This document shows positions 3,901 through 59,662 of a DNA stretch of 64,000 nt, in pieces. Position numbers and translations under genes: made by a program. The notes under the pieces were generated by a model. That model searched no databases and was not told the origin of the DNA. It saw only the letters and a list, made by a program, of their open reading frames with translations. The stretch is from the sequence record MF402939; one strand, 5' to 3'. Source of the DNA: Escherichia phage OSYSP. The number at the start of each line of letters is the position of its first letter. The first letter of the stretch is position 1.

Positions 3901-3902
3901 AT

Positions 3903-6125: not shown

Positions 6126-6144
6126 TAATGAGAGATATAAATAA

Positions 6145-7256: not shown

Positions 7257-7300
7257 TAGTTGCTAAATGCTTAAATACTTGCTATAATATTTATATAAAT
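7257..7300 (+). promoter_or_regulatory. Early promoter sitting between the two ligase ORFs
   Basis: TTGCTA ... TATAAT plus ATAAATTGATAAGGAAG leader. Confidence 0.55.
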
Positions 7301-7318
7301 TGATAAGGAAGAAATTTG

Positions 7319-8855: not shown

Positions 8856-8871
8856 TCTGGTAAATTAAACC

Positions 8872-8905
8872 TAAGGGGAGGGGGCTATGCTCCTTCCCCT
8901 TTTTG
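8872..8905 (+). terminator. Rho-independent terminator (AAGGGGA ... TCCCCTT + TTTT)
   Basis: Hairpin plus T-run. Confidence 0.7.
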
Positions 8906-8937
8906 CATTTAGAAGGCACGAAAGCGTGCAAAGGAGA

Positions 8938-45770: not shown

Positions 45771-47558
45771 TTAGGTAAGGCGTTGAACTGTTACTCTTAA
45801 TCTCGGTAGGAAAATAGCTGCAGCCTCATCAGCGTGAATAATTACGCCCAATTCAGCATTACCATTTCCTAGATTTTTAATAGTATAAATATATCCGTTT
45901 CTTCTAAATGTTAACTCATCAGGTCTACTTGCCCAAGTTTGAGTATAGCTGTATGCAGTAGTGGAGTGATAAGGGACTAAGTATCCAGGAGGTAAGGTTA
46001 ATATTTGATGGAATATTCCATCACCTTCCGTGTAACTATGCTGTCTTCTTCCTTGTACTTGCCAAGCAACACCACCATATGTGCGTATAGCTCCTCCTGC
46101 GGTATTAATATTCCCCATGATAACTTCAGTAGTTAATATTACTGTTGCGTTAGCGTTAGGCAATCCTAATCCTATGGTGGCCAAAGCTCTATAGTAGTTA
46201 CCTGCTCCAGGATATGTTGGAGTTATATCATCGCCAACGTAAGTGCTAGCAACATTATTAGGAAATAGTCTTAAGGGTACAGTACTAGGACTCCACACAG
46301 CTCCATGCTCATTACCTATAGTGTTATTACTTGAGTTTACGTACCATTGCTTACCCGCTCCGAATTTGTAAATACTAATTTGAGACTTAGCCCCTCCATA
46401 ATCTACGGGAGACCATAAAGATCCATTACTAGATCCTACAATTTCACAGCGCGCAGTAGTATCCCCGAAGGCTCCAGTGTACGCTGCGTTATTTCCAATG
46501 TACTCCATATCTGGCCTATAGCCTAAGTTACCAAAAGCATTTTGGTTGATAAACTTATATCCAGTATTTGGTAAACTAACCCCTTTTATAGTAAAATTAG
46601 ATGGAGTTATAAGTATATCTGACCCAGTAAATGGATTACCGGATACGCCCATATTACCATTAGAGTACCTTAGATTAAGTACATACCAAATAACTTTGGT
46701 AGGTGTAATATTATAACCATCCTGCACATATACTTTCTTAGCGGCCTGTGCTGCTAGATTAGATGTTGAACCTTTACATATATAAACCTTATCAGGGTAA
46801 GTAGGAGATTGGTACAATAAGTTAACATTATCGGGTACTGTGCCTTTTTTACCTACGTAACTTCGTATATTAGAGTTACAAACGTAAAAACAATTATGCC
46901 CTCTATGGGCGGCCCCTATAGGAGCTTGCCAGTTAGGATGCCAGTAGTCAGCATTACCACCGTCTATAGGTACTGTAGACGCTCCCGCTGGAAATCCTGC
47001 TAAAGTCCATGCCCTACCTATAGCCTCACCAGCATATGCTCCTCCCGGCCTATATAAATTAAACCCGGAGGCTTGAGATATAGTACCTCCTGTACCTTGC
47101 CTAGCAATTGATTCTTCATGGCCTAAACCAGAGTTATAAATATAGGTGCCATGTGCTAAACTATTACCTGATGCAAAAGCTGACGTAAGACCTACTTCTG
47201 CACCTGCCCTACCAATAGGCGGATCTTCAAAAAATGTAGTAAATTGACCAACTTGAGATTGAGTACCATTAAGAAAAGCCCTATGAGTACCATTAATCTC
47301 AATAGCAGTTAGTATAACTCTACCTGGGTCATTGGATTTAATATTTATTATGTCAGAAGGCATCTGACATACAAAAAACCCATTTCCGGCATTACCTAGC
47401 CCAGCCTCGTAAGTACCATCAACTAGGACAAATGGCATATCACTATGAAAAATACTATTGGCATTTGGACTATAGTGACGATTAATGTCACCCCCAGATT
47501 CAGTATTTAAAGATAGTACGGTCTTACCATCGCTATACTTTCCAGCGAAAAAACCCAT
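45771..47558 (-). CDS. Receptor-binding protein (pb5/Oad-like, 595 aa)
   Basis: Position after terminase and divergent to the lipoprotein gene, as in T5-like phages; Gly/Asn/Tyr-rich. Confidence 0.65.
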
Positions 47559-47583
47559 ATAATCTCCTATTATAAAAATGTAT

Positions 47584-47625
47584 TTGCTTTTATCCCTCTA
47601 TTTTGCTATAATAGACTCATAAATT
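47584..47625 (+). promoter_or_regulatory. Strong early-type promoter for the lipoprotein gene
   Basis: TTGCTT - 17 bp - TATAAT followed by CATAAATTAGAAATGGAGAG leader. Confidence 0.65.
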
Positions 47626-47643
47626 AGAAATGGAGAGATAAAT

Positions 47644-47910
47644 ATGAAAAAGTTTGTGATTGCACTAGTTGCCGCAGTTATGTTGTCTGGTTGTGCACCT
47701 GCCCCCAAACCATTTTGTACGGGATTTGTAAAATCTTTTGGCGGTGCGGGAGAGGAGCATTACGGCCTCAAGGTTCAAAAAGTTCGTATTAAGGGAGATC
47801 GCTTTCCAGTAGTACAGCTCCGTACTAAGTTTGGGTGGTGGGATCTCAGTCAGTTTGACCTTAAATACGGTGATTGTAAATTTAAACTAGAGCAATCTAA
47901 CTACCTGTAA
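47644..47910 (+). CDS. llp: Lytic-conversion lipoprotein (Llp-like receptor-blocking lipoprotein, 88 aa)
   Basis: Signal peptide with lipobox LSGC; divergent from the receptor-binding protein gene. Confidence 0.75.
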   Translation: MKKFVIALVAAVMLSGCAPAPKPFCTGFVKSFGGAGEEHYGLKVQKVRIKGDRFPVVQLRTKFGWWDLSQFDLKYGDCKFKLEQSNYL

Positions 47911-48023
47911 TTAGTATAAAGCAAAAAGACATCCAAGTAAACTAAATTTTTTATTTCTTGGACGGTATACTGGCAGAAACCACTATATAAGAAAAGTAGA
48001 AGTCCTTCTAGGAAGTCGCAAGC

Positions 48024-48215
48024 ATGGTTGGTTATGCACAAACTATAAAATATTTTAAATACCACACTTATAGGAGCATGAAAGATATGTCAAACAAAAG
48101 AAAGAGTAGGCGCGGAGAAGTGTACGATAGTTGGATTAATAGTTTTGGATTCGGAACTATCCTATTCTTTATTTTCGTAGGTTTTTGGTTAGCAGCTATG
48201 GCGGGGTGGATTTAA
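48024..48215 (+). CDS. Small membrane protein with C-terminal transmembrane helix
   Basis: ORF track; hydrophobic C-terminus (ILFFIFVGFWLAAMAGW). Confidence 0.45.
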   Translation: MVGYAQTIKYFKYHTYRSMKDMSNKRKSRRGEVYDSWINSFGFGTILFFIFVGFWLAAMAGWI

Positions 48216-48322
48216 TGGAATGGGTAATTATTGCGTTGCTAGGGATTGTGATTATTGGGCAATGTATTTTAGATAATCACTTAGCTAGAATTGAAACTTT
48301 ACTAACGGAGAAACGTAAATGA
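48215..48322 (+). CDS. Unannotated micro-ORF (about 35 aa, MEWVIIALLGIVIIGQCIL...), single transmembrane helix
   Basis: Hand translation; start overlaps the previous stop (TAATG) and its stop overlaps the next start (ATGA). Confidence 0.35.
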   Translation: MEWVIIALLGIVIIGQCILDNHLARIETLLTEKRK

Positions 48323-48513
48323 TGGAAGTAGTAGCTACACTAATAGTAATACTAGTCTGGGCAACTTTCATTGTTTCTTATAACGCGTATGTTCGCCTAA
48401 AAACTCTAGAGGCCCAGGTAAAGCAGCAACAATTTGCACTAGAAAAATTAGTAGAGCTTCAACGCTGTGATAGTACCCGTATTCTGCAAATTGAGAGGGA
48501 ATTAGATGTTTAG
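48319..48513 (+). CDS. Small membrane protein (transmembrane helix plus coiled coil)
   Basis: ORF track; hydrophobic N-terminus. Confidence 0.45.
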   Translation: MMEVVATLIVILVWATFIVSYNAYVRLKTLEAQVKQQQFALEKLVELQRCDSTRILQIERELDV

Positions 48514-48751
48514 TATTATAATTGCTTTTATTATCGGGATACTCACGGGAGTTTTCGGAATGACTGCGGCAATCAACAAGCATCGTAAATATATTGCGGA
48601 AGTATCGCGGGAGATTGCGGAAAGGGAGCGGAAGTTTGATGAGAAACGTGCGGAGTTCGAACGAGAGTGGTCGGACGGTTCTCGGGCGTCGCGGAAGAGA
48701 TTCCGTGAGTTCAGACCAGAATACAGGTTTGATGACCCTTCTATGCGCTAA
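48506..48751 (+). CDS. Small membrane protein (N-terminal transmembrane helix, charged Arg/Glu-rich tail)
   Basis: ORF track. Confidence 0.45.
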   Translation: MFSIIIAFIIGILTGVFGMTAAINKHRKYIAEVSREIAERERKFDEKRAEFEREWSDGSRASRKRFREFRPEYRFDDPSMR

Positions 48752-48854
48752 TTTGACTTTTGCCAATTTCTTTGGATTACGTACGCGTGGGTGTGTCCAG
48801 TGGCCCCCCAGATGAGAATGAGTCTCATTACCGCCTGGTACTTAGCAGGCTAAT

Positions 48855-48887
48855 AGTCCCGGCATGTTATCATTACACACCGGGACT
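48855..48887. other. Stem-loop (AGTCCCGG ... CCGGGACT) next to the ATGAGAATGAGTCTCAT and TTAGCAGGCTAA motifs
   Basis: Inverted repeat read from the sequence. Confidence 0.4.
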
Positions 48888-48903
48888 ATTTCAACTTTAA
48901 TTA

Positions 48904-49680
48904 CTACGCAACTTTTAATTTCTCAATATATTGTTGCGGGCTGCAACTATATTCTGCGCGTTCTTCTTCGGTCATACCTTCCCAACATAATTGCAGGCGG
49001 TCGGCTAGGAACTGATAATCATTATCATCCTCAAGAGATTCATCGATAAAGGTTTCACCTATCAATGTAACCCCAATCGATAGAATATCGTTAACGGCTT
49101 GTGCGTCCAGCGTTTTAAATCCGTATGATGCCGCCGCTGATAGCACGCCTTTATGATCATCAATCATCGTGAAATCAGCGTTCGGATATAATTGTTTAAA
49201 TAACTCAAAGTAATGGCTTTTATAAATAGCGTCTTTGCTGTGGTATATTTCGCTAACTTTATCAGCCTCAAAATATTTGTGTAGTGTATCGCGGGAAAAT
49301 ACACGGATATTACTATCCCCACGCCCTCGCAATCCTTGTTTACGCAAATAATAATAATCCGACTTGCTCATCAGTCGAGCGGTGCAAATAATGTTTAATG
49401 TATTTGCGTCATTCATGCACTGGCGCATATATGTAACAAGGGGCAATAAAGTATCTTGCATTATTAAATCATGTTTGCAGGCTTCATTTTTATACTTATT
49501 TAAATCTAAATTGCCCTCGCTATCAAAGCAAGGCGCTACACGATGGAAAGAATTAATGATAGTGCCGTCCAGATCCCAAATCATGACGCGGGAAATATGC
49601 GGGAAATTACGGGTAATATTCATTTTAACTTGATTCATTTTGTTACGTTCTCCATTAAAGGGATTTAGTTTATCCAGCAT
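48904..49680 (-). CDS. dmp: HAD-family 5'-deoxyribonucleotidase (Dmp-like); true start possibly at 49638
   Basis: HAD motif I (IWDLDGTI); position next to the A1-like gene. Confidence 0.6.
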   Translation of the reverse strand: MLDKLNPFNGERNKMNQVKMNITRNFPHISRVMIWDLDGTIINSFHRVAPCFDSEGNLDLNKYKNEACKHDLIMQDTLLPLVTYMRQCMNDANTLNIICTARLMSKSDYYYLRKQGLRGRGDSNIRVFSRDTLHKYFEADKVSEIYHSKDAIYKSHYFELFKQLYPNADFTMIDDHKGVLSAAASYGFKTLDAQAVNDILSIGVTLIGETFIDESLEDDNDYQFLADRLQLCWEGMTEEERAEYSCSPQQYIEKLKVA

Positions 49681-49718
49681 TGCCCGCTATTTATCAGCGG
49701 GCAATAATAAATCAACTA

Positions 49719-50111
49719 TTAAAGACCATAAGCCAACGCATCAGCGATAAAACTAATATCTTCACCTGATACGCTGGAACGAATCCCCGCACAAGTATAT
49801 ACTTTTGCGCTGATCAATTGATCATCGAGGCAAGCGGGGCAAGGCGCGACAACTGCAAAGGCTAGGCCGGATTTTACGGCGTCGATGATAATCGTTTCTT
49901 GTTTCACAGTATCAACATAAACACCTTTTGCTTTAATATGGCTGGTTAGTTTACCTTGCATATATGCAAAGGTAGTAACCTGCAAAGCGTCATTAAAATC
50001 TAATAGGTCATCAATAACGTGCCCCGCCTCGACGTGGTAACGTTCACCATTAGAATAAACCAGAACAATTGAGGACTGAGCGCGATCGAATGGAATATTT
50101 TGCTTTTTCAT
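49719..50111 (-). CDS. Hypothetical pre-early protein (130 aa)
   Basis: ORF track. Confidence 0.5.
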   Translation of the reverse strand: MKKQNIPFDRAQSSIVLVYSNGERYHVEAGHVIDDLLDFNDALQVTTFAYMQGKLTSHIKAKGVYVDTVKQETIIIDAVKSGLAFAVVAPCPACLDDQLISAKVYTCAGIRSSVSGEDISFIADALAYGL

Positions 50112-50149
50112 ATTTATAAAACTCCAATTAGTTTAATAATGGATTTAAT

Positions 50150-50407
50150 TTATTTGATAATAATCTGCATCTGGTACGGCGTTAATTCACCGTTTACGGG
50201 TAAATTATTATCGCTCAGCCACTCATAAAAAGCGTCATCGTCATCAAAAGGAACAATATCGTTATCACGGGAATCGACGGAAATAATACCATCCGTATTA
50301 GTTTTGGCGGCTAGGATAGGCCCGAAGCTGTAAACTTTATCAGATTCCATTTCATCCGGTGAAATGAATACTTTTTCGTCTAATGTTTTGGGAAGAGTAA
50401 CTTTCAT
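50150..50407 (-). CDS. Small strongly acidic protein (85 aa); DNA-mimic / anti-defence candidate
   Basis: Large excess of Asp/Glu over Lys/Arg, including a DDDD run. Confidence 0.45.
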   Translation of the reverse strand: MKVTLPKTLDEKVFISPDEMESDKVYSFGPILAAKTNTDGIISVDSRDNDIVPFDDDDAFYEWLSDNNLPVNGELTPYQMQIIIK

Positions 50408-50462
50408 TTAATTTAGCTCCTATAATAGCGGCTATATTTCAAGCCGCTAGGGTATTAATTAT

Positions 50463-52127
50463 TTACGCGAAAAATTTACCGTTTTTAAAGTCGATCAAAG
50501 TGCGCTGACCGTTTGCATAGGTAATAACATGCGTTTGCGTCCAGCTTGACGCGCCAACGTTGTAACCCATGTCCAGACTACCAGCTACGCCAGCGGTATA
50601 TACCCCGCCGTAAATGCTTGCCGTATGAGTATGCCCCGTGTTTAATTTGCCCAATTTCTTAAACTGTTTAGGATTGCCACGGCTGCCGTTAATGCCATTG
50701 TGACCGTGTACGCCGCACTCGATGCCTGCAATTTTAAATGATTGGTCAGTTGTTAGGAAAATGGCGTTAAATTCACAACCTGCAACCTTACGCAGCGCAT
50801 AATCAAGCACGTTGAAAGTATCGTCATGATCACCGATTGCCGCGTAAATTGCAGCATTTAGGCGGTGATATAGTTCCGCGTTTGCGGGATCGTCTTTAAT
50901 GTTAGCATTACGATCATCAAGCCAACGGGATAGCGCTAAATCGTGGTTTGATTCCACGATGATTGTTTGAGAAAAATCGCGCTCCATTGACTCCAGCACG
51001 CGCCCCGTATCGATGAGATCATCCAGAACCTTATCACGTCCGGCGGCGTATTGTTTTGCTAGGAATACACCCGAAGCGCGGTTGTGATGGTTGCGGGATG
51101 TAAAATCATGCACGTCATGAATAAACTGATATTTAGGCTTGAGAATATCAAGCAAGCTATTTTCGCCAGCCCATGACGCAACGGCGCAATCGTCATCTAA
51201 TTTTTCGGCGTGAATATCGCCATATTGCAAGCCTAAAACATGCCCCGATGTTTCATAACATCCGGCGGGAGTGGCGCAAATATTCAAATCGTAAAACACG
51301 CCGCTTTCGTCCATCGTTTCAAGCTGGCGAACAAAAAATTCTCCGTCTTCGTCAAACTCAACAACAAGCGCACCGAAATTATGCAGCGCCTCGGCCTTTT
51401 GTCCTGCTTTCTGCTGGATGTAATTTTTTAGGGTTGCCGTTCCAGTTGAATACATACGACGCACTACTTCACCTTTTAAAGCTGGCACGCTTTCGGCGGT
51501 AATTTTAGCGTGACCAATTGCCAGACCTTCCAGATTAAGCGCCGTTGCAGTTTCAGCGAATCCAGAAAGCGGATAATCTGCGGTTGGCAAAACGTTAATT
51601 TCAGCCATGAAAGCAAAACGGCGGTTATTTAAAAACACGTTTTTATTGCAGATATATTTGTCAAATGCGGAATCATATTTTATTCCTTCTGCACCCTCGC
51701 CATTTTGAAAACCGTTTTTGTTATAAATAAACTTGCTAACCAGCAAATCAGCGCCGATATATTTAGCAAATTGCTCCAGTGAGGCTAAAAAGTTTTTATG
51801 CGGGAAAGTATTATTCTGAATCGACGTAATAATAAAGCGTTTACCCTGCTTTACTTCCCATTGCTCAACCGTGCTAGAAACAATCCCCGCCGCTTCTGGA
51901 CGCTCATCGTTTTTAATGGCTTTTGCTACTTTCGCCGCTTTCGGTTTAGCTGGTTTATTTGCTTCCAACCAGTCGCAGATAGCGGTCGAGTGTTTTGTTG
52001 TATCGTAGACCGCTTTTGATATATCGTCGCAGACCTCCAGTTTAGTAGCGCGCAGACGTTTACCATAGAAATTAAAGTCAGCGGCCATTTTCAGGATAAC
52101 GGTTTGTTTTTCTGCGGAAATAATCAT
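50463..52127 (-). CDS. A1: A1-like pre-early protein with metallophosphoesterase domain (554 aa)
   Basis: Phosphoesterase motifs (GDIH, SNHD, GHNG, GHTH) in the C-terminal half; size close to T5 A1; adjacent to the A2-like and dmp-like genes. Confidence 0.65.
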   Translation of the reverse strand: MIISAEKQTVILKMAADFNFYGKRLRATKLEVCDDISKAVYDTTKHSTAICDWLEANKPAKPKAAKVAKAIKNDERPEAAGIVSSTVEQWEVKQGKRFIITSIQNNTFPHKNFLASLEQFAKYIGADLLVSKFIYNKNGFQNGEGAEGIKYDSAFDKYICNKNVFLNNRRFAFMAEINVLPTADYPLSGFAETATALNLEGLAIGHAKITAESVPALKGEVVRRMYSTGTATLKNYIQQKAGQKAEALHNFGALVVEFDEDGEFFVRQLETMDESGVFYDLNICATPAGCYETSGHVLGLQYGDIHAEKLDDDCAVASWAGENSLLDILKPKYQFIHDVHDFTSRNHHNRASGVFLAKQYAAGRDKVLDDLIDTGRVLESMERDFSQTIIVESNHDLALSRWLDDRNANIKDDPANAELYHRLNAAIYAAIGDHDDTFNVLDYALRKVAGCEFNAIFLTTDQSFKIAGIECGVHGHNGINGSRGNPKQFKKLGKLNTGHTHTASIYGGVYTAGVAGSLDMGYNVGASSWTQTHVITYANGQRTLIDFKNGKFFA

Positions 52128-52223
52128 ATTAATAAAACTCCATTAAAGGGATTAAAAACGTTTGTTATTGGCAAATATTGCCAAATATAACGCCTTGAAT
52201 AATAGGCGTTATAATTTGCAACA

Positions 52224-52421
52224 TTAATTTAAAGGCATAAGGCTAGAACTAACACCACAAGCAACGGCGGCAATAAAACAAATCAGACCTAAACGCTTTG
52301 CCAATTTAGACTTACGTTTAAAATAATATGAGTCTAAATCATTTTGAAAATAAGCGAATAATAACGAGGCCGCCATAATAAATAAGCCTAGAATGAGGGA
52401 TTCAGTAGGGTAAAAGATCAT
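52224..52421 (-). CDS. Small two-helix membrane protein (65 aa)
   Basis: ORF track; two hydrophobic segments. Confidence 0.4.
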   Translation of the reverse strand: MIFYPTESLILGLFIMAASLLFAYFQNDLDSYYFKRKSKLAKRLGLICFIAAVACGVSSSLMPLN

Positions 52422-52477
52422 TTTAAAACTCCAGTCAAAGGGAAATTATAGTGGGGAATATTCCCCACTAATTAAAT

Positions 52478-52885
52478 TTATTCGCCTGCGGCTTGTTTTA
52501 CTTCATCGGCAACGCCTAACAGTTGCGCCACGGCGTCCAGTGTTTCAAGTTTTGCACTTTCCAGACTTGCCAGATCATCGGCGTCTTTGATAATGCCGGA
52601 ATCAATAGCATGTTTAGCGATAACGCGTACATAGTGAGCTTTGCGGATTGAGCTACCGCCGCCAACTTTGCGCGGCTTATCGCTTTTCTGATACGCTTTC
52701 GCGCTGGTCAATTTTGACCGAACGGATACGGGAGAAGCCGCGCCCACTGCTTTTGCAATCTCTTTTAAACCGTAGCTATTTGCGAAATCTAAACCGTTTT
52801 CATTGATTAACTGCTGATACATGGAAACGGCTTTTTGGGTGTTTTCTTCATTCCAAGCAAATTTTGCGGTTTTAACGTTAGTCAT
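52478..52885 (-). CDS. A2: A2-like pre-early DNA-binding protein (135 aa)
   Basis: Size and position next to the A1-like gene; basic segment. Confidence 0.5.
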   Translation of the reverse strand: MTNVKTAKFAWNEENTQKAVSMYQQLINENGLDFANSYGLKEIAKAVGAASPVSVRSKLTSAKAYQKSDKPRKVGGGSSIRKAHYVRVIAKHAIDSGIIKDADDLASLESAKLETLDAVAQLLGVADEVKQAAGE

Positions 52886-52983
52886 GGTAAAAACTCCTAT
52901 TAGTTTAATTTAAGGGATAAGATTAACATAGTGTTAATCATTATATTCCCCATATTTCAGAGGAATATAAAGTTAACACTAAA

Positions 52984-53235
52984 TTATAACACAGCTTCCC
53001 ATTTTTCGTTACGCTGTACAACCTTTACAACGTCGCCGGATTTAACGCGAACGCTAAAAACGGTTTTGCCGTTGTTACTACGTTCATTTTCAGCGTATAC
53101 CGCGTCGATTGTATCAAACGGCATAAGCGCCGCACCTTTAATACGTTCGGCTTTTCCGGTTAGTTCATCCGTTTTAGTAACGAAAGGAATAAAAACGGAT
53201 TGACCAATTTTAGGCGCGGTAATAACGTTTTTCAT
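52984..53235 (-). CDS. Hypothetical pre-early protein (83 aa)
   Basis: ORF track. Confidence 0.45.
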   Translation of the reverse strand: MKNVITAPKIGQSVFIPFVTKTDELTGKAERIKGAALMPFDTIDAVYAENERSNNGKTVFSVRVKSGDVVKVVQRNEKWEAVL

Positions 53236-53462
53236 AATATAAACTCCTAGTTATTTGGGGATTGTTCCGCATTACCTGCTAGAAAGTAGCAGGTAATAAG
53301 CAACAATCCGCTCACCGCTATAATCAATTTAAAGAACTCCATGCAGGCCGCTATATCCCAGTTAGGGGGCGGGACACATTATGGTAAGTGCCGACCGTCA
53401 GATTTTATCAAGTTATCGCTCTTATCGAACTGAGTACATCTTAAAGCCTATCGGCTAGGTTG

Positions 53463-53666
53463 TCAAACAATTTTTTGCAGTTTTTTATAATTCTCTTTCA
53501 AGTCAATCATAATATTTCGCCAGATCATTTCTAAACCTTGCTGGCGGCCTTTCTTGTACTGCGTGAATCGGTATTTTACCGATCTTTGCGCTACTGTCAA
53601 CAAATTTTTTGTTTTGCTGTCCAGTGCCTTGCTAGGTTTACCAGTGATCAATAAAGTTTGTTTCAT
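53463..53666 (-). CDS. Small basic protein (67 aa), possibly DNA-binding
   Basis: ORF track; Lys/Arg-rich. Confidence 0.4.
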   Translation of the reverse strand: MKQTLLITGKPSKALDSKTKNLLTVAQRSVKYRFTQYKKGRQQGLEMIWRNIMIDLKENYKKLQKIV

Positions 53667-54091
53667 ATCTGCGATTCCTTATAATGTATAAGTTTACCGC
53701 CGATAGACTTTAAGATGTACCCAATTTTTAAAGAGCGCGGCGGTAAACTTCCCGCCGTGTAGTTCGTCATTGCCGCCCTACGAGATAAATAATAAGGGAT
53801 TCACAAAAATGGCGCAACCTTATTTTTGTAAAGAAACGTAAAGACAAATGCCACCGGACACCGTGCGGCGACCTGGGCGCGACGCACTAAAATTAAAAGA
53901 AACGGGCGCGCGAATACCACAAAACATAGCAGATAGGCAAGTAATTTTTTCATTTATATTTGCTTTGCCCTACTTGACAAAATCTAAAAAACTCGTGGTA
54001 GCGATAAACGAGGGTAGGCAATGCAATGGCATGGCTAAAAACTTCATCGCGTTCTAGGGCGTTTTAGGCGCATTCTAGCCTTGTTGATAAC

Positions 54092-54534
54092 TTATCCCCA
54101 GAAGCAAAAATGAAATTTTCCTAGTTATCCACTTGACTTTTATTTTCCAGTGGATAACTACTTATTTTATAAAATAAATTAATTGACTTTTATTTGTTAG
54201 TATGCGTCGGAAAGATAGCAGACTAATAATTGCTAGGATGATAATCATGCTGGTGGATTGTAACGGCTTAAATTATTAGCAGACTATTAATCACGGAAAA
54301 TCTCATTAGCCAACTAACTATTTCATGATATATAATATACTTATAAATTAAGGAGAAATAATAATTATAAGAAATAATAGCTACAGTAAATATTAACTAT
54401 AAGAAACTATCGGCCTAAGTGAGAACCACTATCATTTAAGTTATCCACAACGTTATCCACAGCACAAAATGATTTGACATAATAGGCGGTGATATAAGGA
54501 CTTTTACACAGACTTATCCACAGCTTATCCTACT
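54092..54534. promoter_or_regulatory. DnaA-box cluster in the divergent intergenic region (perfect TTATCCACA at 54441, 54453, 54514; variants at 54092, 54125, 54150 inverted, 54526)
   Basis: Direct match to the 9-mer DnaA box consensus. Confidence 0.7.
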
Positions 54535-54549
54535 GTATAAATATACAAG
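54508..54549 (+). repeat. Left arm of a 42-bp inverted repeat (ACAGACTTATCCACAG..TATCCTACTGTATAAATATACA), with DnaA box and -10-like TATAAAT
   Basis: Reverse complement of 58209-58250, identical except 2 central bases (hand-aligned). Confidence 0.8.
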
Positions 54550-54815
54550 GTAAAAAGGTAGTGTTAACAACTGCAATCAATTTTAAGCGGCCTAAAACGC
54601 TTTCTAACGAGCTAAATGCGGTGGGGTAATATTAAAGTAAAGTCTTCACCCGTCGCCCTGGTGGCTTCACTGTGTTTTGCTCTTTATTGCACCGCTGCGC
54701 GGTTAGCATAAAACTAGGCGCTAGGCAAGGAAAATAAAAAGGTAAAATAATATTTGCCCCTAGAAAGAAAATACCTTTATCATTCACTCACCGATTAACG
54801 AGGGAGGCCGAACAA

Positions 54816-55808
54816 ATGAGGCTTTATAAACCAGATAACGCAACCGTCTTAAAAGGTGCATTGCGCAACCTGCTGGATGGTAGCAGAACAACCAGCATTA
54901 AACATTTTGTTTTCAATATTGAAACACTTCATCGTAATTTTCTTGATGATTACGATGCTTATAATATGAATAGTTTTCTACCGTTATATAATCAAGGGGC
55001 AACGCTTGTTTTATATAATCAGGAATCTCACTTGCTTACTAGTCGAGGGCCAGATACTGATTTTATTATAGTGAAAGGCAGTACAGTAAAAGCCTATGAT
55101 GCGGGGGCGGGCTTAGAAGTTTTCACGATAGAAAATTATGAGCCTTATGATAAGGATCTTTATGACGTAGAAAATTTTCTCGATTCATTTTGGCGTTATT
55201 TATCAATTGGGTGGAATCGATCAGATTATCACGGGTATCGTTTTGCGGCTATAATGGCTTTTGATGATAACGGTAATTTTTTGCTACCGTCGGAATTATA
55301 CCCGTATGTATATAATGATTTAATAGAGGAGGCTGGTTTTACTTTCTGGAAAGATGAAGATCAGCCTATTGACAACACGGAAAAACATGCTGTAAATTCT
55401 AACACTCAAAGCGTTAACACTCAAACTACTGAAAATAAAGGGAAAAATACTATGACCAAGATCGCTAACATCGTTGCCGCTAATAAATCCGCTGTTGTAA
55501 ACGCTGCAAAACTGGAAGCGGGTAAAATTGCACTGACTCAAATCACGAAAGTAGCGGCTAAAAAACCGCCGTTTATTATCAAGGGTTATATTGATACGCC
55601 GATTGGTCGGGTAGTGATTGCCAACCTGCTGAGTGTAGCGGTTGACCAGTACGCCCCGAGTAACCAGAAAGCGAAAGCGGTAGCAGGAGCGGCTATGGAA
55701 GCGGCAATGCTAGAAATGGTGCAAAGTTTTAACATCGCTGAAATGATCGATGAAATGGTAAAAGGTATCGATATTTCTACTTTCACCGTTAACAACGAAA
55801 GCGAGTAA
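54816..55808 (+). CDS. Hypothetical pre-early protein (330 aa)
   Basis: ORF track; GGAGG Shine-Dalgarno upstream. Confidence 0.6.
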   Translation: MRLYKPDNATVLKGALRNLLDGSRTTSIKHFVFNIETLHRNFLDDYDAYNMNSFLPLYNQGATLVLYNQESHLLTSRGPDTDFIIVKGSTVKAYDAGAGLEVFTIENYEPYDKDLYDVENFLDSFWRYLSIGWNRSDYHGYRFAAIMAFDDNGNFLLPSELYPYVYNDLIEEAGFTFWKDEDQPIDNTEKHAVNSNTQSVNTQTTENKGKNTMTKIANIVAANKSAVVNAAKLEAGKIALTQITKVAAKKPPFIIKGYIDTPIGRVVIANLLSVAVDQYAPSNQKAKAVAGAAMEAAMLEMVQSFNIAEMIDEMVKGIDISTFTVNNESE

Positions 55809-55872
55809 TAATATTAAGCGGGGATTGTTACCCCGCTTTAATGTTCCCTTGTTAATTAATAGGAGGCTAATT

Positions 55873-56367
55873 ATGTCAGAAGAAAAATATGGCTTCTCAC
55901 TGGGAGAAGTGAGCACGGCTAAACACGATATGATCATTTTGGTCGATTGTCATACTGGCTATTGCGGAGAAGGCTGGACGGAGGAACATTTTGTTCCAGC
56001 TGGCTGTAATCTGGACGCTTTCGCTCAGGAAATGGCTGTTGATAATGCTTCTCGTTTCGGTAGCGATGGCTATGAAGACGAGGAAACTGGCGAATGGTAT
56101 GAAAATGAAAACGTATACGCTAGTCTTTATCATTATCAATTAAGTAAATCCGGCGCATATGTAAACGGCGGCGATCCTATTAATTCCATCATGAGATTAA
56201 TTATTAAACATGGTGGCGTCGAGATAATTGATAACAAAGCGGTAATATACGCAAACCGATTAAAACAGCTTGTTTATATTCCTGATAATACCCGATGGGA
56301 TGAATATGCTGTTTTGCATGACGAATTGAAACGATGTTTCAATATTGAATCCTTACAAGTAGTCTAA
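55873..56367 (+). CDS. Hypothetical acidic protein (about 164 aa, start at MSEEKYG)
   Basis: AGGAGG Shine-Dalgarno 6 nt before ATG at 55873. Confidence 0.55.
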   Translation: MSEEKYGFSLGEVSTAKHDMIILVDCHTGYCGEGWTEEHFVPAGCNLDAFAQEMAVDNASRFGSDGYEDEETGEWYENENVYASLYHYQLSKSGAYVNGGDPINSIMRLIIKHGGVEIIDNKAVIYANRLKQLVYIPDNTRWDEYAVLHDELKRCFNIESLQVV

Positions 56368-56472
56368 TGTAAAGTTTTGTAAAGGTCGCCTTTTATGGTG
56401 GCCTTTTTTGTTATAATGCTTTTACACCAAAACGGTGGATTGAAAATTTTCCCAAAAATTTGGAGGCTTAAA

Positions 56473-56703
56473 ATGGTTGCATACTCTTCTGCTAGTCATC
56501 TGTTTACCGCGCAAGGCTGGGTATCTAATCGCGTCATCATTCATGAAATGGTGCAGGAGTTCGGCATTGCTAAAACTTACACTACCATTCAGGAACTATA
56601 CAACGCCGATAAAATCGATCAGCAAACGGCTGGCTTTTTGCTGGATACCCTGAAGGCGGAACATTGCACCAAAAAACAAGCCGCTAAAATTGTTTTAATG
56701 TAA
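56473..56703 (+). CDS. Hypothetical protein (about 76 aa, start at MVAYSS)
   Basis: GGAGG Shine-Dalgarno before ATG at 56473. Confidence 0.5.
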   Translation: MVAYSSASHLFTAQGWVSNRVIIHEMVQEFGIAKTYTTIQELYNADKIDQQTAGFLLDTLKAEHCTKKQAAKIVLM

Positions 56704-56749
56704 TTAATAACGGGGCGTTATTTTCGCCCCGCTAACTAGGAGAATGAAA

Positions 56750-56899
56750 ATGGTTATTTTTCGAGCTATTCTGGCAGGTATCTTGGGCGCTATTTTATCG
56801 TTGTTTGCAATAGCTTTCGGTGTTCACGCCGTTATTGTCGGCGCGGGTATCGCCGTTTTTTCTTATCTGCTGGGCTGCATGATTAGTAAAGGAGAATAA
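56750..56899 (+). CDS. Unannotated hydrophobic micro-protein (49 aa, MVIFRAILAGILGAILSLFAIAFGVHAVIVGAGIAVFSYLLGCMISKGE)
   Basis: Hand translation; AGGAG Shine-Dalgarno; stop lies 2 nt before the next ATG. Confidence 0.5.
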   Translation: MVIFRAILAGILGAILSLFAIAFGVHAVIVGAGIAVFSYLLGCMISKGE

Positions 56900-56901
56900 A
56901 A

Positions 56902-57114
56902 ATGATCCGCAACGTTTCTCTTGCTCGTTCGAAAGGCTTTAAGCTGGTGGACGTTAACACGTTCGAGCGTGAAGATTGTAAAATCGAATATGTAGCGCGG
57001 AATAAAAACGCCTTTCGTGTTACCGAGAAAAAATTCGATAAGCGCGGCAACGTGGTCGCTGAAACGGTTAAACATTTTGCCACCTTTTACGCTGCGTTTC
57101 GTGGGGTACTATGA
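56902..57114 (+). CDS. Hypothetical basic protein (70 aa)
   Basis: ORF track. Confidence 0.5.
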   Translation: MIRNVSLARSKGFKLVDVNTFEREDCKIEYVARNKNAFRVTEKKFDKRGNVVAETVKHFATFYAAFRGVL

Positions 57115-57236
57115 AAAGCGTTATCATTATTAGCCTTGCAATGGTTGGCGGTTTTACCGCCACCTTATTTAAAAATGATCCCCTTTTACTGGGGATTTTT
57201 ATGCTTTTATCTGGCTATCTGATTGGGAGGTTATAA
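57111..57236 (+). CDS. Unannotated hydrophobic micro-protein (41 aa, MKSVIIISLAMVGGFTATLFKNDPLLLGIFMLLSGYLIGRL)
   Basis: Hand translation; ATGA start/stop overlap with the upstream gene. Confidence 0.5.
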   Translation: MKSVIIISLAMVGGFTATLFKNDPLLLGIFMLLSGYLIGRL

Positions 57237-57237
57237 A

Positions 57238-57582
57238 ATGGTAATTTATGAAGGCAATCGTTTTGTTGCTAATTGCCGTCCTGCATTGCTAGCAAATTAC
57301 TTAAATCAGCTTTCACCAGCTTATAAGGGCGTTATTAATATTTATGAGGGCAAAGTGCATTATAAGGTTAATGCGGTCGTTGCCCGTGAACTAGCGTTTC
57401 AATTTTTGACCTTTGCATCTTGTGACGTTCAGGTTATGGGTGAGGCGTTAATTGCAGAAAATGAAGATGATTTTATTAACATTTTTCGCAAGATATGCAC
57501 CGAGCGCCTGATCATGAAAGGCGCTTATATTCAATCCACTGCGGATAGTATTGAAACAGCGTTTCGAAAGGTGGCGCAATGA
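57238..57582 (+). CDS. Hypothetical protein (about 114 aa, start at MVIYEG)
   Basis: GGGAGG Shine-Dalgarno before ATG at 57238. Confidence 0.5.
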   Translation: MVIYEGNRFVANCRPALLANYLNQLSPAYKGVINIYEGKVHYKVNAVVARELAFQFLTFASCDVQVMGEALIAENEDDFINIFRKICTERLIMKGAYIQSTADSIETAFRKVAQ

Positions 57583-57737
57583 AAAAGTTTTTAATAGCTG
57601 GCATGTTTCCGTTGTTGCCTTATGTAATTTGCTGGGCTTTATATGCTCATGGTGCTAGTGTTCCCGGTGTGGCTTCATTTGGTGTATCGGCGGGCTTTCT
57701 AGCTGGACTATTGGCAAGCGTATATTTACGCAAATAA
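57579..57737 (+). CDS. Unannotated hydrophobic micro-protein (52 aa, MKKFLIAGMFPLLPYVICWALYAHGASVPGVASFGVSAGFLAGLLASVYLRK)
   Basis: Hand translation; ATGA overlap with the upstream gene. Confidence 0.5.
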   Translation: MKKFLIAGMFPLLPYVICWALYAHGASVPGVASFGVSAGFLAGLLASVYLRK

Positions 57738-57756
57738 TTAATAACGGAGCGTTATT

Positions 57757-57951
57757 ATGAGCAATAAAATTGTTGTAACCAAAATCAGTACAATGGTTGA
57801 TGTTTTTTACGTGCCCGATACGCCGGAGAATCGGCGAGCGGTCGAGCGTGGCGAGTATGATAAAGTGATTTATGATCACGATGGTTACTATCAACATTTG
57901 GTGGATTCCTACGGGGAGGAGGAAAAAATCACGCATCGACTACCAGACTAA
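57757..57951 (+). CDS. Small acidic protein (64 aa)
   Basis: ORF track. Confidence 0.5.
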   Translation: MSNKIVVTKISTMVDVFYVPDTPENRRAVERGEYDKVIYDHDGYYQHLVDSYGEEEKITHRLPD

Positions 57952-57992
57952 TAATCACGGGGCGCAACTACCAGGGAGTGCCCCCAATTCTC

Positions 57993-58087
57993 AAATGAGA
58001 ATCATTCTCATTTGACTGCGCCCGCGATGGTTAGCCTGCTAATGATTAGGGTGTTACGTGTCGCCTTGTGTGATCGTTAGCAGGCTA
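57993..58087. repeat. Palindromic elements: AAATGAGAATCATTCTCATTT and a 12-bp inverted pair TTAGCCTGCTAA / TTAGCAGGCTAA
   Basis: Read from the sequence; related motifs occur at 48812-48853. Confidence 0.7.
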
Positions 58088-58208
58088 ACTAATTTTTAAG
58101 CCTCCTCCAATTTTGCCCTTGTTTTAGTACCCCCACCAAAATTAAACGCGTTAGAATGCGATCTAGGACGTTTTAGCGGTATACTAGAATTATTCACTAC
58201 ATAGGAAT

Positions 58209-58250
58209 ACTGTATATTTATACAGTAGGATATCCTGTGGATAAGTCTGT
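58209..58250 (-). repeat. Right arm of the 42-bp inverted repeat (reverse orientation), includes DnaA box TGTGGATAA at 58236; a second box at 58309
   Basis: Hand-computed reverse complement matches 54508-54549. Confidence 0.8.
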
Positions 58251-58334
58251 TAATAACGCCTCAAAATGGCTAGGATTCTGTCAAATCAAATCGTGCTGTT
58301 AATAAGTCTGTGGATAACTTAAATAACAGTGTTT

Positions 58335-58510
58335 CTCACTTCCATTCTTAAATGAGAATCATTATCATTCGCAGTCCACTGTCTAACCGATAATCATTTC
58401 CTTTCTTAAATGAGAATCATTTCACTTTTTGAATAGTTCTCATTTCCTTTCTTAAATGAGAATAATTATCATTCGCATTCCACTTCTTAAATGATAATGA
58501 TTCTCATTCA
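58335..58510. repeat. Cluster of at least 4 copies of TTCTTAAATGAGAAT(C/A)ATT in direct and inverted orientation
   Basis: Read from the sequence. Confidence 0.75.
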
Positions 58511-58515
58511 AAGTC

Positions 58516-58533
58516 GCAGGGCAATTGCCCTGC
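58516..58533. repeat. Perfect 18-bp palindrome GCAGGGCAATTGCCCTGC
   Basis: Self-complementary by inspection. Confidence 0.85.
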
Positions 58534-58538
58534 GCTTT

Positions 58539-59141
58539 TGTGCAAATCCGACATTGCTCCACGGGTGTTACGTGCGGGCATGTATGTGCGAATCCGACAA
58601 TTTTTGGTAGTGTGCGAATCCGACCCTAAAAACTTTTGTGATGTGCGAATCCAACAATGAATTTTCCCAAAAACTCCAGCAATCACGAACTGCGTTCGAA
58701 TCCTGTGGGATATGTGCAAATCCGACACGGTTTTTCTAGGATTAAGATGTGCAAATCCGACAAGATTTTTGTGACTTCGATGAGAGGGTGTGTGATTGTA
58801 TAGGTTTGAGGAGAAGATGAGAGAGCGAGAAAAGTTTGGGAGGCTAGAAGGATGCGGGCGCAGGATTGGTGCGGAGCACCTGATTTGCGGGGATTTTGGG
58901 GAAGAGTTGAGATAATTTGGGAAGATTTGAGATAGGTGCAGAAAAAGTAAAATTTTATTAGCAAAATGGGGCAAAATAGCTTGACAAGTGAAAATTTCTG
59001 TGGCTCTAAAAACTCAGGCAATCATGGGCCTTCGGCCCGAAATAATGCTGCCATTTTCAAGAGATTATATGTTCCTAAAAACTTAGGCGTTTGTGCAAAT
59101 CCGACCATAAATTTCTAGGAACACAATGTACAAATCCGACA
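58539..59141 (+). repeat. Iteron-like array: 8 same-orientation copies of 15-bp TGTGC(G/A)AATCCGAC(A/C) at 58539, 58585, 58611, 58642, 58713, 58748, 59092, 59127
   Basis: Direct repeats located by hand; copy 4 carries CCAACA and copy 8 TGTACA variants. Confidence 0.8.
58790..58945. repeat. Purine-rich (G/A) strand-asymmetric tract with short GAGATA / TTGGG repeats
   Basis: Read from the sequence. Confidence 0.6.
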
Positions 59142-59169
59142 GTAATTTCTGGAAATGTGTTTTCAAAAA

Positions 59170-59240
59170 ATGTCTCCTAGAAATAACCGCCCTCCCTATA
59201 ACCGCCCTGTATTAACCGCCCTGTATTAACCGCCTATTGC
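59170..59240. repeat. Short tandem repeats (A/T)TAACCGCC(CT), 4 copies, flanked by TTCTAGGAA / TTCCTAGAA inverted motifs
   Basis: Read from the sequence. Confidence 0.65.
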
Positions 59241-59662
59241 TAGAGTTTCTAGGAATATGAAAACCGCCTGAGTTGACTAGAGAAACAGATTTAAAGTTTA
59301 ATGTAAACTCTAGAGTTAGTGCTCAACTATTCCTAGAAACTTAGGAGTCTAGAAGAAAGTGTTGTGCCATCCTAGCAGATGAGCGGCAACAGGTGTATCA
59401 TCTTGAACACAAATATTGCCTTTAAATATTTTTAGTTATTTAAAAGTAAATATACCCCCATTTCATGAGAGCTTACTCGTGGGGCGCGTGAGTATTACGG
59501 AAGACTTAGTAATTAGATCTATACTCGTGCTGTCGCAACGTATAGACGTAATACTAAGTGTAATAATCATCGCCCCTAGAGTTCAAAACAAGAGTTGTTT
59601 TTAATCTATGAGATTATTATAACATGTGCCGCAATGAGTTGTCAAGAAGATTTTGTTAATGT

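What the first reader, a model, noticed from the sequence alone, without database searches (positions are those of the whole stretch)
48800..58090. Similar motif sets bound the roughly 9.2-kb pre-early block; the window probably crosses a collapsed terminal repeat
At 48801-48853 (GGCCCCCCA, ATGAGAATGAGTCTCAT, TTAGCAGGCTAA) and at 57980-58087 (GTGCCCCCAA, AAATGAGAATCATTCTCATTT, TTAGCCTGCTAA and TTAGCAGGCTAA) the same short elements recur in the same order, bracketing the dmp/A1/A2-like genes and the plus-strand operon. T5-like genomes have a terminal direct repeat of about 10 kb holding the pre-early genes, placed after the receptor-binding and llp genes. The gene order here (late genes, llp, pre-early block, repeat-dense DNA, early genes) is what a collapsed terminal repeat would look like, so these motifs may mark repeat boundaries, nick sites or packaging signals.
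Basis: partly seen in the sequence, partly recalled or inferred. Interest (0 to 1): 0.65.

Follow-up and report, generated by a model that had tools for sequence, protein, structure and literature searches.

The report
Collapsed T5-type terminal repeat, boundaries corrected
The window crosses one assembly-collapsed copy of the well-known ~10.2-kb terminal repeat of a T5-like phage (48794-59006); the left motif set sits at the physical left end, the right set lies about 0.9 kb inside the repeat, and their shared palindrome has the sequence of a host Fur (iron-regulator) binding site.

Summary
The motifs are real and non-random. The 19-bp palindrome family has 5 sites in 64 kb (0.03 expected) and TTAGCAGGCTAA has 3 (0.5 expected). 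All lie in one 10-kb block. The C-run is no better than chance.

The collapsed-repeat reading is right. The window is collinear with both ends of phage T5 through a single copy of the repeat. T5 position 1 maps to 48794. The T5 repeat end maps to 59006. BF23 (PhageTerm termini) and eight two-repeat genomes agree to within 1 nt.

The repeat is therefore 10,213 bp, not about 9.2 kb. The left set occupies bases 8-60 of the repeat. The right set lies 0.92-1.03 kb inside the right boundary, at the start of the known non-coding Repeat Region 3 (injection-stop region). T5 and BF23 lack the right set and carry a canonical terminator there. The two sets assort independently among relatives, so they are not paired boundary markers.

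The right set resolves into one palindrome of the injection-stop repeat family plus a long plus-strand hairpin with a T-run, probably the terminator of the rightward pre-early operon.

Three palindromes match the proven E. coli gpmA Fur operator at 18 of 18 specified bases. I found no paper reporting this.

Overall this is known biology with corrected coordinates.

The parts
48794..59006 (.). Single (collapsed) copy of the T5-type direct terminal repeat, 10,213 bp. It stands for both LTR and RTR.
   Evidence: T5 position 1 corresponds to 48794 and the T5 LTR end 10219 / genome end 121750 corresponds to 59006. BF23 PhageTerm termini map to 48795 and 59006. Eight two-repeat IMG/VR genomes end at the 59006 homologue and several start at 48794/48795. 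Kenya-K37 gives 48810-58977. The chee24 annotation gives 48888-58798 and is an outlier.
48752..48793 (.). Conserved ~45-nt stretch just outside the left boundary (from the conserved GCGCTAA stop to ...GGTGTG).
   Evidence: It is conserved in relatives even where the upstream gene differs.
48800..48853 (.). Left motif set, occupying bases 7-60 of the repeat: C-run 48800-48810, imperfect palindrome 48812-48828, TTAGCAGGCTAA 48842-48853.
   Evidence: It is one of two main haplotypes of the left terminus. T5, BF23 and others have TTAGTCTGCTAA...TTACCATGCTAA here instead.
48852..48890 (.). Hairpin between the left motif set and the dmp stop codon; probably a bidirectional terminator.
   Evidence: Inverted repeat I22 and folds on both strands. 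Its function is inferred.
48904..49638 (-). dmp (deoxynucleoside-5'-monophosphatase).
   Evidence: Homologous to T5.001 and matches phrog_415.
50463..52127 (-). A1 DNA transfer protein.
   Evidence: phrog_1745 at 4e-244; homologous to T5.004.
52478..52885 (-). A2 DNA-binding protein.
   Evidence: phrog_1725 at 5e-51; homologous to T5.006.
54417..54547 (.). IRC-spacer-IRD (Repeat Region 2) with DnaA boxes; the inverted partner of 58211-58341.
   Evidence: Inverted repeats I1/I2, blastn to T5 and Davison's nomenclature.
54816..57951 (+). Rightward pre-early operon, from the T5.011 homologue to the last small ORF.
57993..58013 (.). Palindrome AAATGAGAATCATTCTCATTT of the right motif set. It is a member of the injection-stop repeat family and matches the gpmA Fur operator at 17 of 18 specified bases.
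   Evidence: (family D2).
58027..58096 (+). Long hairpin whose arms include TTAGCCTGCTAA and TTAGCAGGCTAA, followed by TAATTTTT. It is the probable intrinsic terminator of the rightward operon.
   Evidence: The module folds with z = -7.45. In 16 of 16 relatives the + strand RNA is more stable than the - strand (means -32.4 and -18.2 kcal/mol). Stem pairs are G.U-tolerant with A-T to G-T to G-C changes. T5 and BF23 have annotated terminators at the same position.
58211..58341 (.). IRD'-spacer-IRC' with DnaA boxes (TGTGGATAA at 58237 and 58310).
58333..58509 (.). Two ~73-nt direct repeats (DRE-like) carrying three palindromes identical to the gpmA Fur operator (58351-58369 +, 58455-58473 +, 58490-58508 -) and a half site at about 58409.
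   Evidence: Family D5.
58515..58536 (-). Hairpin CGCAGGGCAATTGCCCTGCG and the homologue of the T5 major 7.9% nick (between 58535 and 58536, minus strand).
   Evidence: T5 annotates the nick at 9748/9749. The surrounding sequence is almost identical and fits the consensus R|GCGC(A/G)GG.
58538..59143 (.). Eight GTGC(A/G)AATCCGAC repeats (DRD). Six lie inside the repeat and two lie beyond its right boundary.
   Evidence: Family D1 and Davison's description.
59184..59234 (.). Four TAACCGCC repeats, 177-228 nt outside the right boundary.
   Evidence: 5 hits in the window against 0.93 expected. The repeats sit at a fixed offset of +177/+192 in all relatives.

Best explanation
The window comes from a T5-like (Tequintavirus) genome in which the two ~10.2-kb direct terminal repeats of the virion DNA are represented once. 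This is what short-read assembly produces. The order is late/tail genes, receptor-binding protein, Cor/llp, [repeat 48794-59006], early genes.

The left motif set is the first ~60 bp of the repeat, which is the physical left end of the packaged DNA and the first DNA to enter the cell. It is one of two alternative terminal haplotypes found among T5-like phages. Any role in end formation is inferred only from its position and from conservation across the cut site.

The right motif set is not a boundary. It opens the long non-coding 'Repeat Region 3 / injection stop signal' region and has two functional parts:
(a) One copy of the TGA(G/T)AATnATT(C/A)TCA palindrome that recurs four more times in the injection-stop region. 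Its half-sites vary independently of each other, which fits a protein-binding site and not a hairpin, and its sequence is that of an E. coli Fur operator.
(b) A 60-nt plus-strand hairpin plus T-run that most likely terminates the rightward pre-early operon.

The resemblance between the two sets reflects re-use of a small vocabulary of short palindromic elements within the repeat's non-coding DNA.

Shown here: the collapse, the boundaries by homology, motif enrichment, conservation, strand asymmetry of the hairpin, and sequence identity to a proven Fur operator. Inferred: terminator function, protein binding, and any role of the left set in end formation.
For: Identity and collapse:
- 496 phage records match, nearly all T5-like, with dmp/A1/A2/llp annotated under the match.
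- The window is collinear with both T5 ends through one repeat copy. The T5 annotation gives the LTR as 1-10219, the RTR as 111532-121750 and iss as 9140-10149.
- PHROG assignments confirm the genes.

Boundaries:
- T5 starts TGTCCA..., equivalent to window 48794.
- T5 ends ...TTTCTGTGGCTC, equivalent to window 59006.
- BF23, with PhageTerm termini, agrees within 1 nt at both ends.
- Eight two-repeat genomes end at the 59006 homologue, and several begin (T)GTCCAGTGGCCCCCCAGATGAGAATGAG....
- Kenya-K37 (PhageTerm, coverage and PFGE) is within 16 and 29 nt.

Motifs: enrichment. All copies lie inside the repeat.

Right set:
- The module is conserved in at least 16 relatives.
- T5 and BF23 have a canonical terminator at the same position.
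- The module fold has z = -7.45.
- The + strand hairpin averages -32.4 kcal/mol against -18.2 for the - strand, in 16 of 16 sequences.
- Stem variation is G.U-tolerant and partly compensatory.

Palindromes:
- Mixed half-site combinations G/A (59) and T/C (20) are, taken together, as common as the matched G/C (78).
- Three window sites equal the K-12 gpmA Fur operator at 18 of 18 specified bases. That operator is a 27.4-bit, gel-shift-confirmed site (PMC2189734).

Context: the repeat architecture matches the published description of the T5 injection-stop region (bioRxiv 10.1101/866236).
Against: - No reads are available, so the duplication and exact termini of this particular phage are inferred by homology. 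Some deposited genomes may themselves have been trimmed by analogy to T5.
- Deposited boundaries are not unanimous: chee24 gives 48888-58798 and K37 gives 48810-58977.
- The terminator-like hairpin was not picked up by the simple terminator scan, whose loop limit is 8 nt. Its U-run is short (3-5 U) and is separated from the stem by CUAA. Covariation evidence is thin because the sequences are about 95% identical.
- Fur binding is not tested.
- The left-set palindrome is a poor Fur match, with 3 of 18 positions mismatched.
Confidence: 0.85

Rival explanations
1. One reading: the two motif sets are the paired boundary markers (repeat ends, packaging signals or nick sites) of a ~9.2-kb terminal repeat spanning 48800-58090.
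For: The left set does lie at the left terminus. The two sets are significantly similar and in the same order. Both are conserved in many relatives.
Against: - The right terminus maps to 59006, or 58977 in K37, in T5, BF23 and eight other genomes. None ends near 58090.
- T5 and BF23 have terminal repeats without the right set.
- All combinations of left and right modules occur among relatives.
- The true junctions show no significant similarity.
- The major-nick homologue is at 58535|58536. The right set has only the minimal GCGC, which occurs 22 times in the region.
Confidence: 0.04
2. The shared palindromes are binding sites for host Fur (possibly acting together with DnaA at the adjacent DnaA boxes). 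They have a role in infection, for example arresting first-step DNA transfer or sensing iron status. The motif sets are then functionally Fur operators and not structural boundary elements.
For: - 18 of 18 identity to the gpmA operator at three sites and 17 of 18 at the right-set palindrome.
- The best E. coli matches of the repeat are the Fur-regulated gpmA and chuT promoters.
- All 5 matches to the Fur 7-1-7 core in 64 kb lie in the repeat.
- Half-sites behave like protein sites.
- The cluster is conserved in T5 and BF23 and overlaps the estimated FST shear point at T5 9618.
- The FST stop needs no new protein synthesis; this last point is from my own knowledge of the T5 literature.
Against: - No binding or genetic data exist.
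- The genome is AT-rich and repeats can mimic operators.
- The sites could instead serve a phage or virion protein.
- The left-terminal copy is degenerate.
- T5 is routinely grown under varied iron conditions with no reported dependence on fur; this is from my own knowledge and I did not check it.
Confidence: 0.25
3. The recurrences are chance matches of AT-rich low-complexity sequence, or simple relics of duplication, with no function.
For: The C-run element is no better than chance. The left-set motifs are absent from about half of relatives, including T5.
Against: Shuffle controls. The right module and the injection-stop palindromes are about 95% conserved at fixed positions, while Davison reports that the neighbouring coding region is poorly conserved among T5-like phages.
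Confidence: 0.07

Closest known systems
Terminal repeats (LTR/RTR, 10,219 bp) of bacteriophage T5 (NC_005859) and BF23 (OR083247, 9,743 bp)
   Same: Same gene content and order: dmp, A1, A2, a divergent promoter region, a rightward operon, then the non-coding injection-stop region. Same flanks: oad/llp on the left and early genes on the right. Terminal sequences are homologous at both ends, with 87-91% DNA identity over most of the block.
   Different: - There is one copy here instead of two, because the assembly is collapsed.
- The T5 HNH endonuclease hegG is absent (T5 5419-6018 has no counterpart).
- The first 60 bp are the alternative haplotype.
- The T5/BF23 terminator at the start of Repeat Region 3 is replaced by the 140-nt palindrome-plus-long-hairpin module.
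T5 injection stop signal / Repeat Region 3 (Heusterspreute 1987; Wang 2005; Davison bioRxiv 10.1101/866236)
   Same: IRD'-spacer-IRC' with paired DnaA boxes, DRE-like 73-nt repeats, palindromes, the major nick hairpin, and DRD repeats overrunning the repeat end.
   Different: The published descriptions I could read leave the function of the palindromes open and do not mention Fur. The right motif set lies at the left edge of this region and is not present in T5 itself.
E. coli Fur operator (19-bp Fur box; gpmA promoter site)
   Same: AATGAGAATnATTATCATT is identical at all 18 specified positions. It has the 7-1-7 inverted-repeat architecture, and several sites are clustered within 160 bp, as at strong chromosomal Fur clusters.
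   Different: The sites are not in an obvious promoter of an iron-related gene. They sit in untranslated phage DNA next to DnaA boxes. Binding has not been tested.
Intrinsic (rho-independent) terminators
   Same: A stable plus-strand stem-loop followed by a T-run, immediately after the last ORF of an operon, at the same position as annotated terminators in T5 and BF23.
   Different: The stem is unusually long (about 26 pairs with an internal loop). A 4-nt spacer precedes a short U-run. It was not detected by the simple scan.

Membership tests
T5-type long direct terminal repeat | Block carrying the pre-early genes dmp, A1 and A2 followed by a large non-coding repeat region. | tested here: met
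   PHROG hits, collinearity with the T5 LTR and the repeat architecture.
T5-type long direct terminal repeat | In a one-copy assembly, the left flank equals the right-arm end (receptor-binding protein and llp) and the right flank equals the start of the early region. | tested here: met
   Window 48051-48793 aligns to T5 110790-111531, and window 59007-59407 aligns to T5 10220-10608. RBP and Cor/llp are identified.
T5-type long direct terminal repeat | Boundaries homologous to experimentally or PhageTerm-determined termini. | tested here: met
   48794/48795 and 59006 against T5, BF23 and eight two-repeat genomes. K37 is within 16 and 29 nt.
T5-type long direct terminal repeat | The block is physically present twice in virion DNA (about 2x read depth, read-start pile-ups at both boundaries). 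| not testable with these tools
   No reads or virion DNA are available for this phage.
T5 injection stop signal region (Repeat Region 3) | IRD'-spacer-IRC' inverted relative to IRC-spacer-IRD, with paired DnaA boxes, followed by DRE and DRD repeats. | tested here: met
   I1/I2 join 54417-54547 and 58211-58341. TGTGGATAA occurs at 58237 and 58310. See families D1, D5, D13 and D14.
T5 injection stop signal region (Repeat Region 3) | DNA transfer actually pauses here (FST shear point). | not testable with these tools
   This requires a blender-shear or infection experiment.
   The left set does: it occupies bases 7-60 of the repeat. The right set does not: it lies 918-1029 bp inside the boundary. 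As a pair, the feature is not met.
   T5 and BF23 lack the right set and the left palindrome. The modules assort independently.
T5 major nick site | Minus-strand consensus Pu|GCGC(A/G)GG, as at the four annotated T5 nicks. | tested here: not met
   The motif sets have only GCGCAGT, at 58021. The full consensus and the T5 homologue are at 58535|58536.
E. coli Fur operator | 19-bp inverted repeat matching the Fur box or a proven operator. | tested here: met
   Three sites match the gpmA operator at 18 of 18 specified bases and the right-set site at 17 of 18, against a chance expectation of 0.02. The 7-1-7 core gives 5 hits against 0.94 expected.
E. coli Fur operator | Bound by Fur-Fe2+ and controlling an overlapping promoter. 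| not testable with these tools
No convincing promoter overlaps the sites; one search found only 9-of-12 matches.
Intrinsic terminator | Stable stem-loop followed by a U-run at the 3' end of an operon. | tested here: inconclusive
   The hairpin folds at -36.8 kcal/mol and is followed by CUAAUUUUU. Its position matches the T5 and BF23 terminators. The simple scan did not list it, and the U-run is short and offset.

The most novel reading that the evidence does not exclude
[quoted passage not shown] They match the gpmA operator at 18 of 18 specified bases. Pre-existing Fur, together with DnaA at the adjacent boxes, would bind the incoming first-step DNA and contribute to the long-unexplained pause of T5 DNA injection, or would couple infection to iron status. 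The second idea is suggested by the fact that these phages enter through Fur-regulated TonB-dependent receptors.
Probability: 0.2. Interest if true: 0.7.

Novelty: already known. Interest (0 to 1): 0.25.

Why it matters
For annotation: this genome record lacks one 10.2-kb repeat. The virion genome is about 10.2 kb longer than the assembly, and its ends should be placed at 48794 and 59006.

For biology: the terminal repeat and injection-stop region of T5-like phages are textbook features, so the finding adds little by itself.

What is not in the literature I could search is that the repeated palindromes equal one of the strongest proven E. coli Fur operators. If Fur binds them in vivo, there would be a concrete, testable host factor for the 60-year-old question of how T5 stops DNA transfer at 8% of the genome.

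Tried and rejected
- Rfam scan of 47500-60000 at E <= 1 returned only two sub-threshold chance hits and nothing at either motif set.
- I looked for a common cut-site motif at the two true junctions and found no significant similarity (81-130 of 1000 shuffles score at least as well).
- Nick-site reading of the motifs: rejected.
- Obligatory pairing of the left and right sets: rejected by co-occurrence counts.
- Hairpin or cruciform reading of the palindromes: disfavoured because the half-sites change independently.
- A DNA-level, strand-symmetric reading of the TTAGC...GCTAA pair: disfavoured by the consistent plus-strand advantage.
- The simple terminator scan did not list the long hairpin.
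- Davison 2015 could not be retrieved by DOI. I did not try to retrieve Wang 2005. No supplementary text was held for the two papers I checked. I therefore could not check whether 'DRA copy 1' is the TAACCGCC element at the T5 left end, nor build a Fur weight matrix from the published site list.
Full report
**1. Observation**

Exact coordinates are:
- Left set: GTGGCCCCCCA 48800-48810, ATGAGAATGAGTCTCAT 48812-48828, TTAGCAGGCTAA 48842-48853.
- Right set: GTGCCCCCAA 57978-57987, AAATGAGAATCATTCTCATTT 57993-58013, TTAGCCTGCTAA 58031-58042, TTAGCAGGCTAA 58077-58088.

Tests against dinucleotide-preserving shuffles of the whole window:
- The 12-mer (up to 1 mismatch) occurs 3 times against 0.50 expected.
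- The 19-bp palindrome (up to 3 mismatches) occurs at 5 sites against 0.03 expected.
- The C-run is not better than chance, with 1 hit against 1.03 expected.
- A gapped local alignment of the two sets scores 28 against 14.0 +/- 2.2 for shuffles. It is the best non-self match of the left segment in the 64 kb.

**2. What the region is**

Megablast of 47600-59600 finds 496 phage records, essentially all T5-like. The best are 90-93% identical, with dmp, A1, A2 and receptor-blocking/Cor annotated under the match. PHROG scans assign the following:

| Window coordinates | Strand | Assignment |
|---|---|---|
| 45771-47558 | - | receptor-binding tail protein |
| 47644-47910 | + | Cor/llp |
| 48904-49638 | - | dmp family |
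| 50463-52127 | - | A1 |
| 52478-52885 | - | A2 |

In T5 (NC_005859) the left terminal repeat is annotated as 1-10219 and the right repeat as 111532-121750. The injection stop signal is at 9140-10149 and a major nick at 9748/9749.

BLASTN gives two collinear alignments:
- Window 48051-59006 aligns with the T5 right end, from unique llp-side DNA through the RTR to the last base.
- Window 48885-59407 aligns with the T5 left end, from the LTR on into unique early DNA.

Two flanks that lie about 100 kb apart in the virion are thus joined here through one copy of the repeat. That is a collapsed terminal repeat.

**3. Boundaries**

Left end:
- T5 begins TGTCCACTGCC..., which aligns to window 48794 (TGTCCAGTGGCC...).
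- BF23, whose termini were determined with PhageTerm (PMC10644984), starts at the homologue of 48795.
- Several IMG/VR genomes that carry both repeats start (T)GTCCAGTGGCCCCCCAGATGAGAATGAGTCTCATT..., which is the window's own left-set sequence.

Right end:
- T5 ends ...GAAAATTTCTGTGGCTC, which aligns to window 59006.
- BF23 ends its repeat at the homologue of 59006.
- Eight two-repeat genomes end at the 59006 homologue.

Deviating records:
- Kenya-K37 (PhageTerm, 2x coverage and PFGE; PMC10783031) gives 48810-58977.
- The chee24 group is annotated at 48888-58798.

The repeat is therefore 48794-59006, or 10,213 bp. The left motif set occupies bases 7-60 of the repeat. The right set lies 0.92-1.03 kb inside the right boundary.

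The sequence is conserved across both cut sites. About 45 nt outside the left boundary is conserved even where the upstream gene differs. The right junction and its flank are nearly invariant. The two junctions are not significantly similar to each other.

**4. The motif sets are not a pair**

- The first 60 bp of the repeat exist in two main haplotypes. One is the window type (palindrome plus TTAGCAGGCTAA). The other is the T5/BF23 type (TTAGTCTGCTAA ... TTACCATGCTAA). Recombinants also occur.
- The right module is about 95% conserved in at least 16 relatives. It is absent from T5 and BF23, which have a canonical hairpin plus TTTTT terminator at exactly that position. This is followed in all phages by the same ...GCCTCC...TTGTTTTAGTA(T/C)CCCC sequence.
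- Across 30 genomes the left and right modules assort independently:

| Left end | Start of Repeat Region 3 | Genomes |
|---|---|---|
| Window type | Right module | 9 |
| T5 type | Right module | 7 |
| Window type | No right module detected | 5 |
| T5 type | T5-type terminator | 3 |

  The other six genomes could not be typed at one end or both.
- The four annotated T5 major nicks share R|GCGC(A/G)GG on the minus strand. The window homologue is at 58535|58536, next to the hairpin 58515-58534. The motif sets contain only the minimal GCGC, at 58021.

**5. Anatomy of the right set**

As plus-strand RNA, 57952-58105 folds at -68.5 kcal/mol (z = -7.45) into two elements:
- A GC stem enclosing the palindrome.
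- A long hairpin (58027-58088) whose arms include the two TTAGC..GCTAA 12-mers, followed by CTAATTTTT.

In 16 of 16 relatives the plus-strand hairpin is far more stable than its minus-strand complement. The means are -32.4 and -18.2 kcal/mol, and the difference comes from many G.U pairs. Variation in the stem runs A-T to G-T to G-C.

Given this and the positional equivalence with the T5 and BF23 terminators, the most likely function is termination or 3'-end stabilisation of the rightward pre-early operon (54816-57951). This is an inference. The simple terminator scan did not list it, and the U-run is short.

**6. The palindrome family**

The repeat finder places the right-set palindrome in a five-member family (57979, 58336, 58394, 58440, 58475). 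This family is the DRE/DRC-type repeat of the injection-stop region. Davison describes this region as conserved in all T5-like phages and of unknown function.

Across the related loci the half-sites toggle between GAGAAT and GATAAT independently. Mixed combinations number 59 + 20, against 78 for the matched G/C combination. This fits a dimeric protein-binding site and not a hairpin.

The core matches the Fur 7-1-7 box TGATAATnATTATCA. There are 5 hits with up to 2 mismatches in the window, all inside the repeat, against 0.94 expected.

A BLAST of one repeat against 5,426 E. coli genomes returned mostly intergenic hits. Of the three loci I inspected, two are Fur-regulated promoters:
- the gpmA promoter, matched at 19 of 19 bases in some strains;
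- the chuA-chuT (haem uptake) intergenic region, just upstream of chuT.

The third lies upstream of a plasmid autotransporter gene.

In K-12 the gpmA operator reads AATGAGAATTATTATCATT. Chen et al. 2007 (PMC2189734) rank it joint first among predicted E. coli Fur sites at 27.4 bits and confirmed it by gel shift.

Matches to that operator, leaving the central base free:
- Window sites 58351(+), 58455(+) and 58490(-) are identical at all 18 specified positions.
- The right-set palindrome matches at 17 of 18.
- T5 has an exact copy at 9656.
- Chance expectation is 0.02.

The left-set palindrome is a poorer match, at 15 of 18 by my own count.

Searches of the held literature found nothing linking Fur to T5-like phages. 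Davison's text does not mention Fur. I could not read Wang 2005 or Heusterspreute 1987.

**7. Verdict**

So is the statement that the left motifs mark a repeat boundary. The claim that the right motifs mark the other boundary is wrong, and so is the 9.2-kb size.

The feature itself is textbook T5 biology. The one element with some novelty is the sequence identity of the repeated palindromes to a proven, top-ranked Fur operator. These palindromes are clustered where T5 first-step transfer is estimated to stop (T5 about 9618). That remains a lead that needs binding and infection experiments.

Noticed in passing
window 58351-58369, 58455-58473, 58490-58508 (also 57994-58012); L003 (T5) 9656-9674: The injection-stop-region palindromes AATGAGAATnATTATCATT match the E. 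coli K-12 gpmA Fur operator at all 18 specified bases. That operator scores 27.4 bits and is gel-shift confirmed. The cluster overlaps the estimated T5 first-step-transfer shear point. I found no paper linking Fur and T5-like phages.
   Followed up: partly
window 49013-49027: A perfect Fur 7-1-7 core, TGATAATCATTATCA, lies inside the dmp coding sequence (peptide ..DDNDYQ..). It is conserved in 35 related loci. This may simply reflect the conserved peptide.
   Followed up: partly
window 59184-59234: Four tandem TAACCGCC repeats sit 177-228 nt outside the right repeat boundary. The first two are at a fixed offset (+177/+192) in every relative examined. T5-type left ends carry CTAACCGCCACCCCC at +33, and the window has ATTACCGCC there. 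This may be Wang's 'DRA' repeat, and it is a candidate terminase-related element.
   Followed up: partly
window 59440-59645 (minus strand): A 12-of-12 consensus sigma-70 promoter with an extended -10 (59645-59616) points leftwards into a highly structured ~170-nt stretch (z = -6.8). That stretch ends at a terminator-like hairpin (59472-59454). The stretch is conserved in 261 phage records, is not homologous to T5 at this position, has no Rfam match, and lies next to a homing-endonuclease ORF (59663-60019). It may be a small RNA gene.
   Followed up: partly
window 58515-58536: This is the homologue of the T5 major 7.9% nick (minus strand, between 58535 and 58536), immediately 3' of a perfect GC-rich hairpin. 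The four annotated T5 major nicks share the extended consensus R|GCGC(A/G)GG.
   Followed up: yes
window 58082-58083 (centre of the second TTAGCnnGCTAA): The two central bases of the second 12-mer vary widely among relatives (AG, GA, GT, GC, GG, TC) within an otherwise nearly invariant 140-nt module. Only some of the variants pair with the centre of the first copy.
   Followed up: partly
window 54187-54275 versus L003 (T5) 5419-6018: The T5 HNH homing endonuclease gene hegG, which splits Repeat Regions 1 and 2 in T5, is absent from this phage. This agrees with Davison's remark that most T5-like phages lack it.
   Followed up: no
L001 (chee24 MF431730) repeat_region; L042 (Kenya-K37) DTR: Deposited terminal-repeat annotations of close relatives disagree with the T5/BF23 termini. 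The chee24 group differs by 94 and 208 nt, and K37 by 16 and 29 nt. Some database boundaries are therefore approximate.
   Followed up: yes
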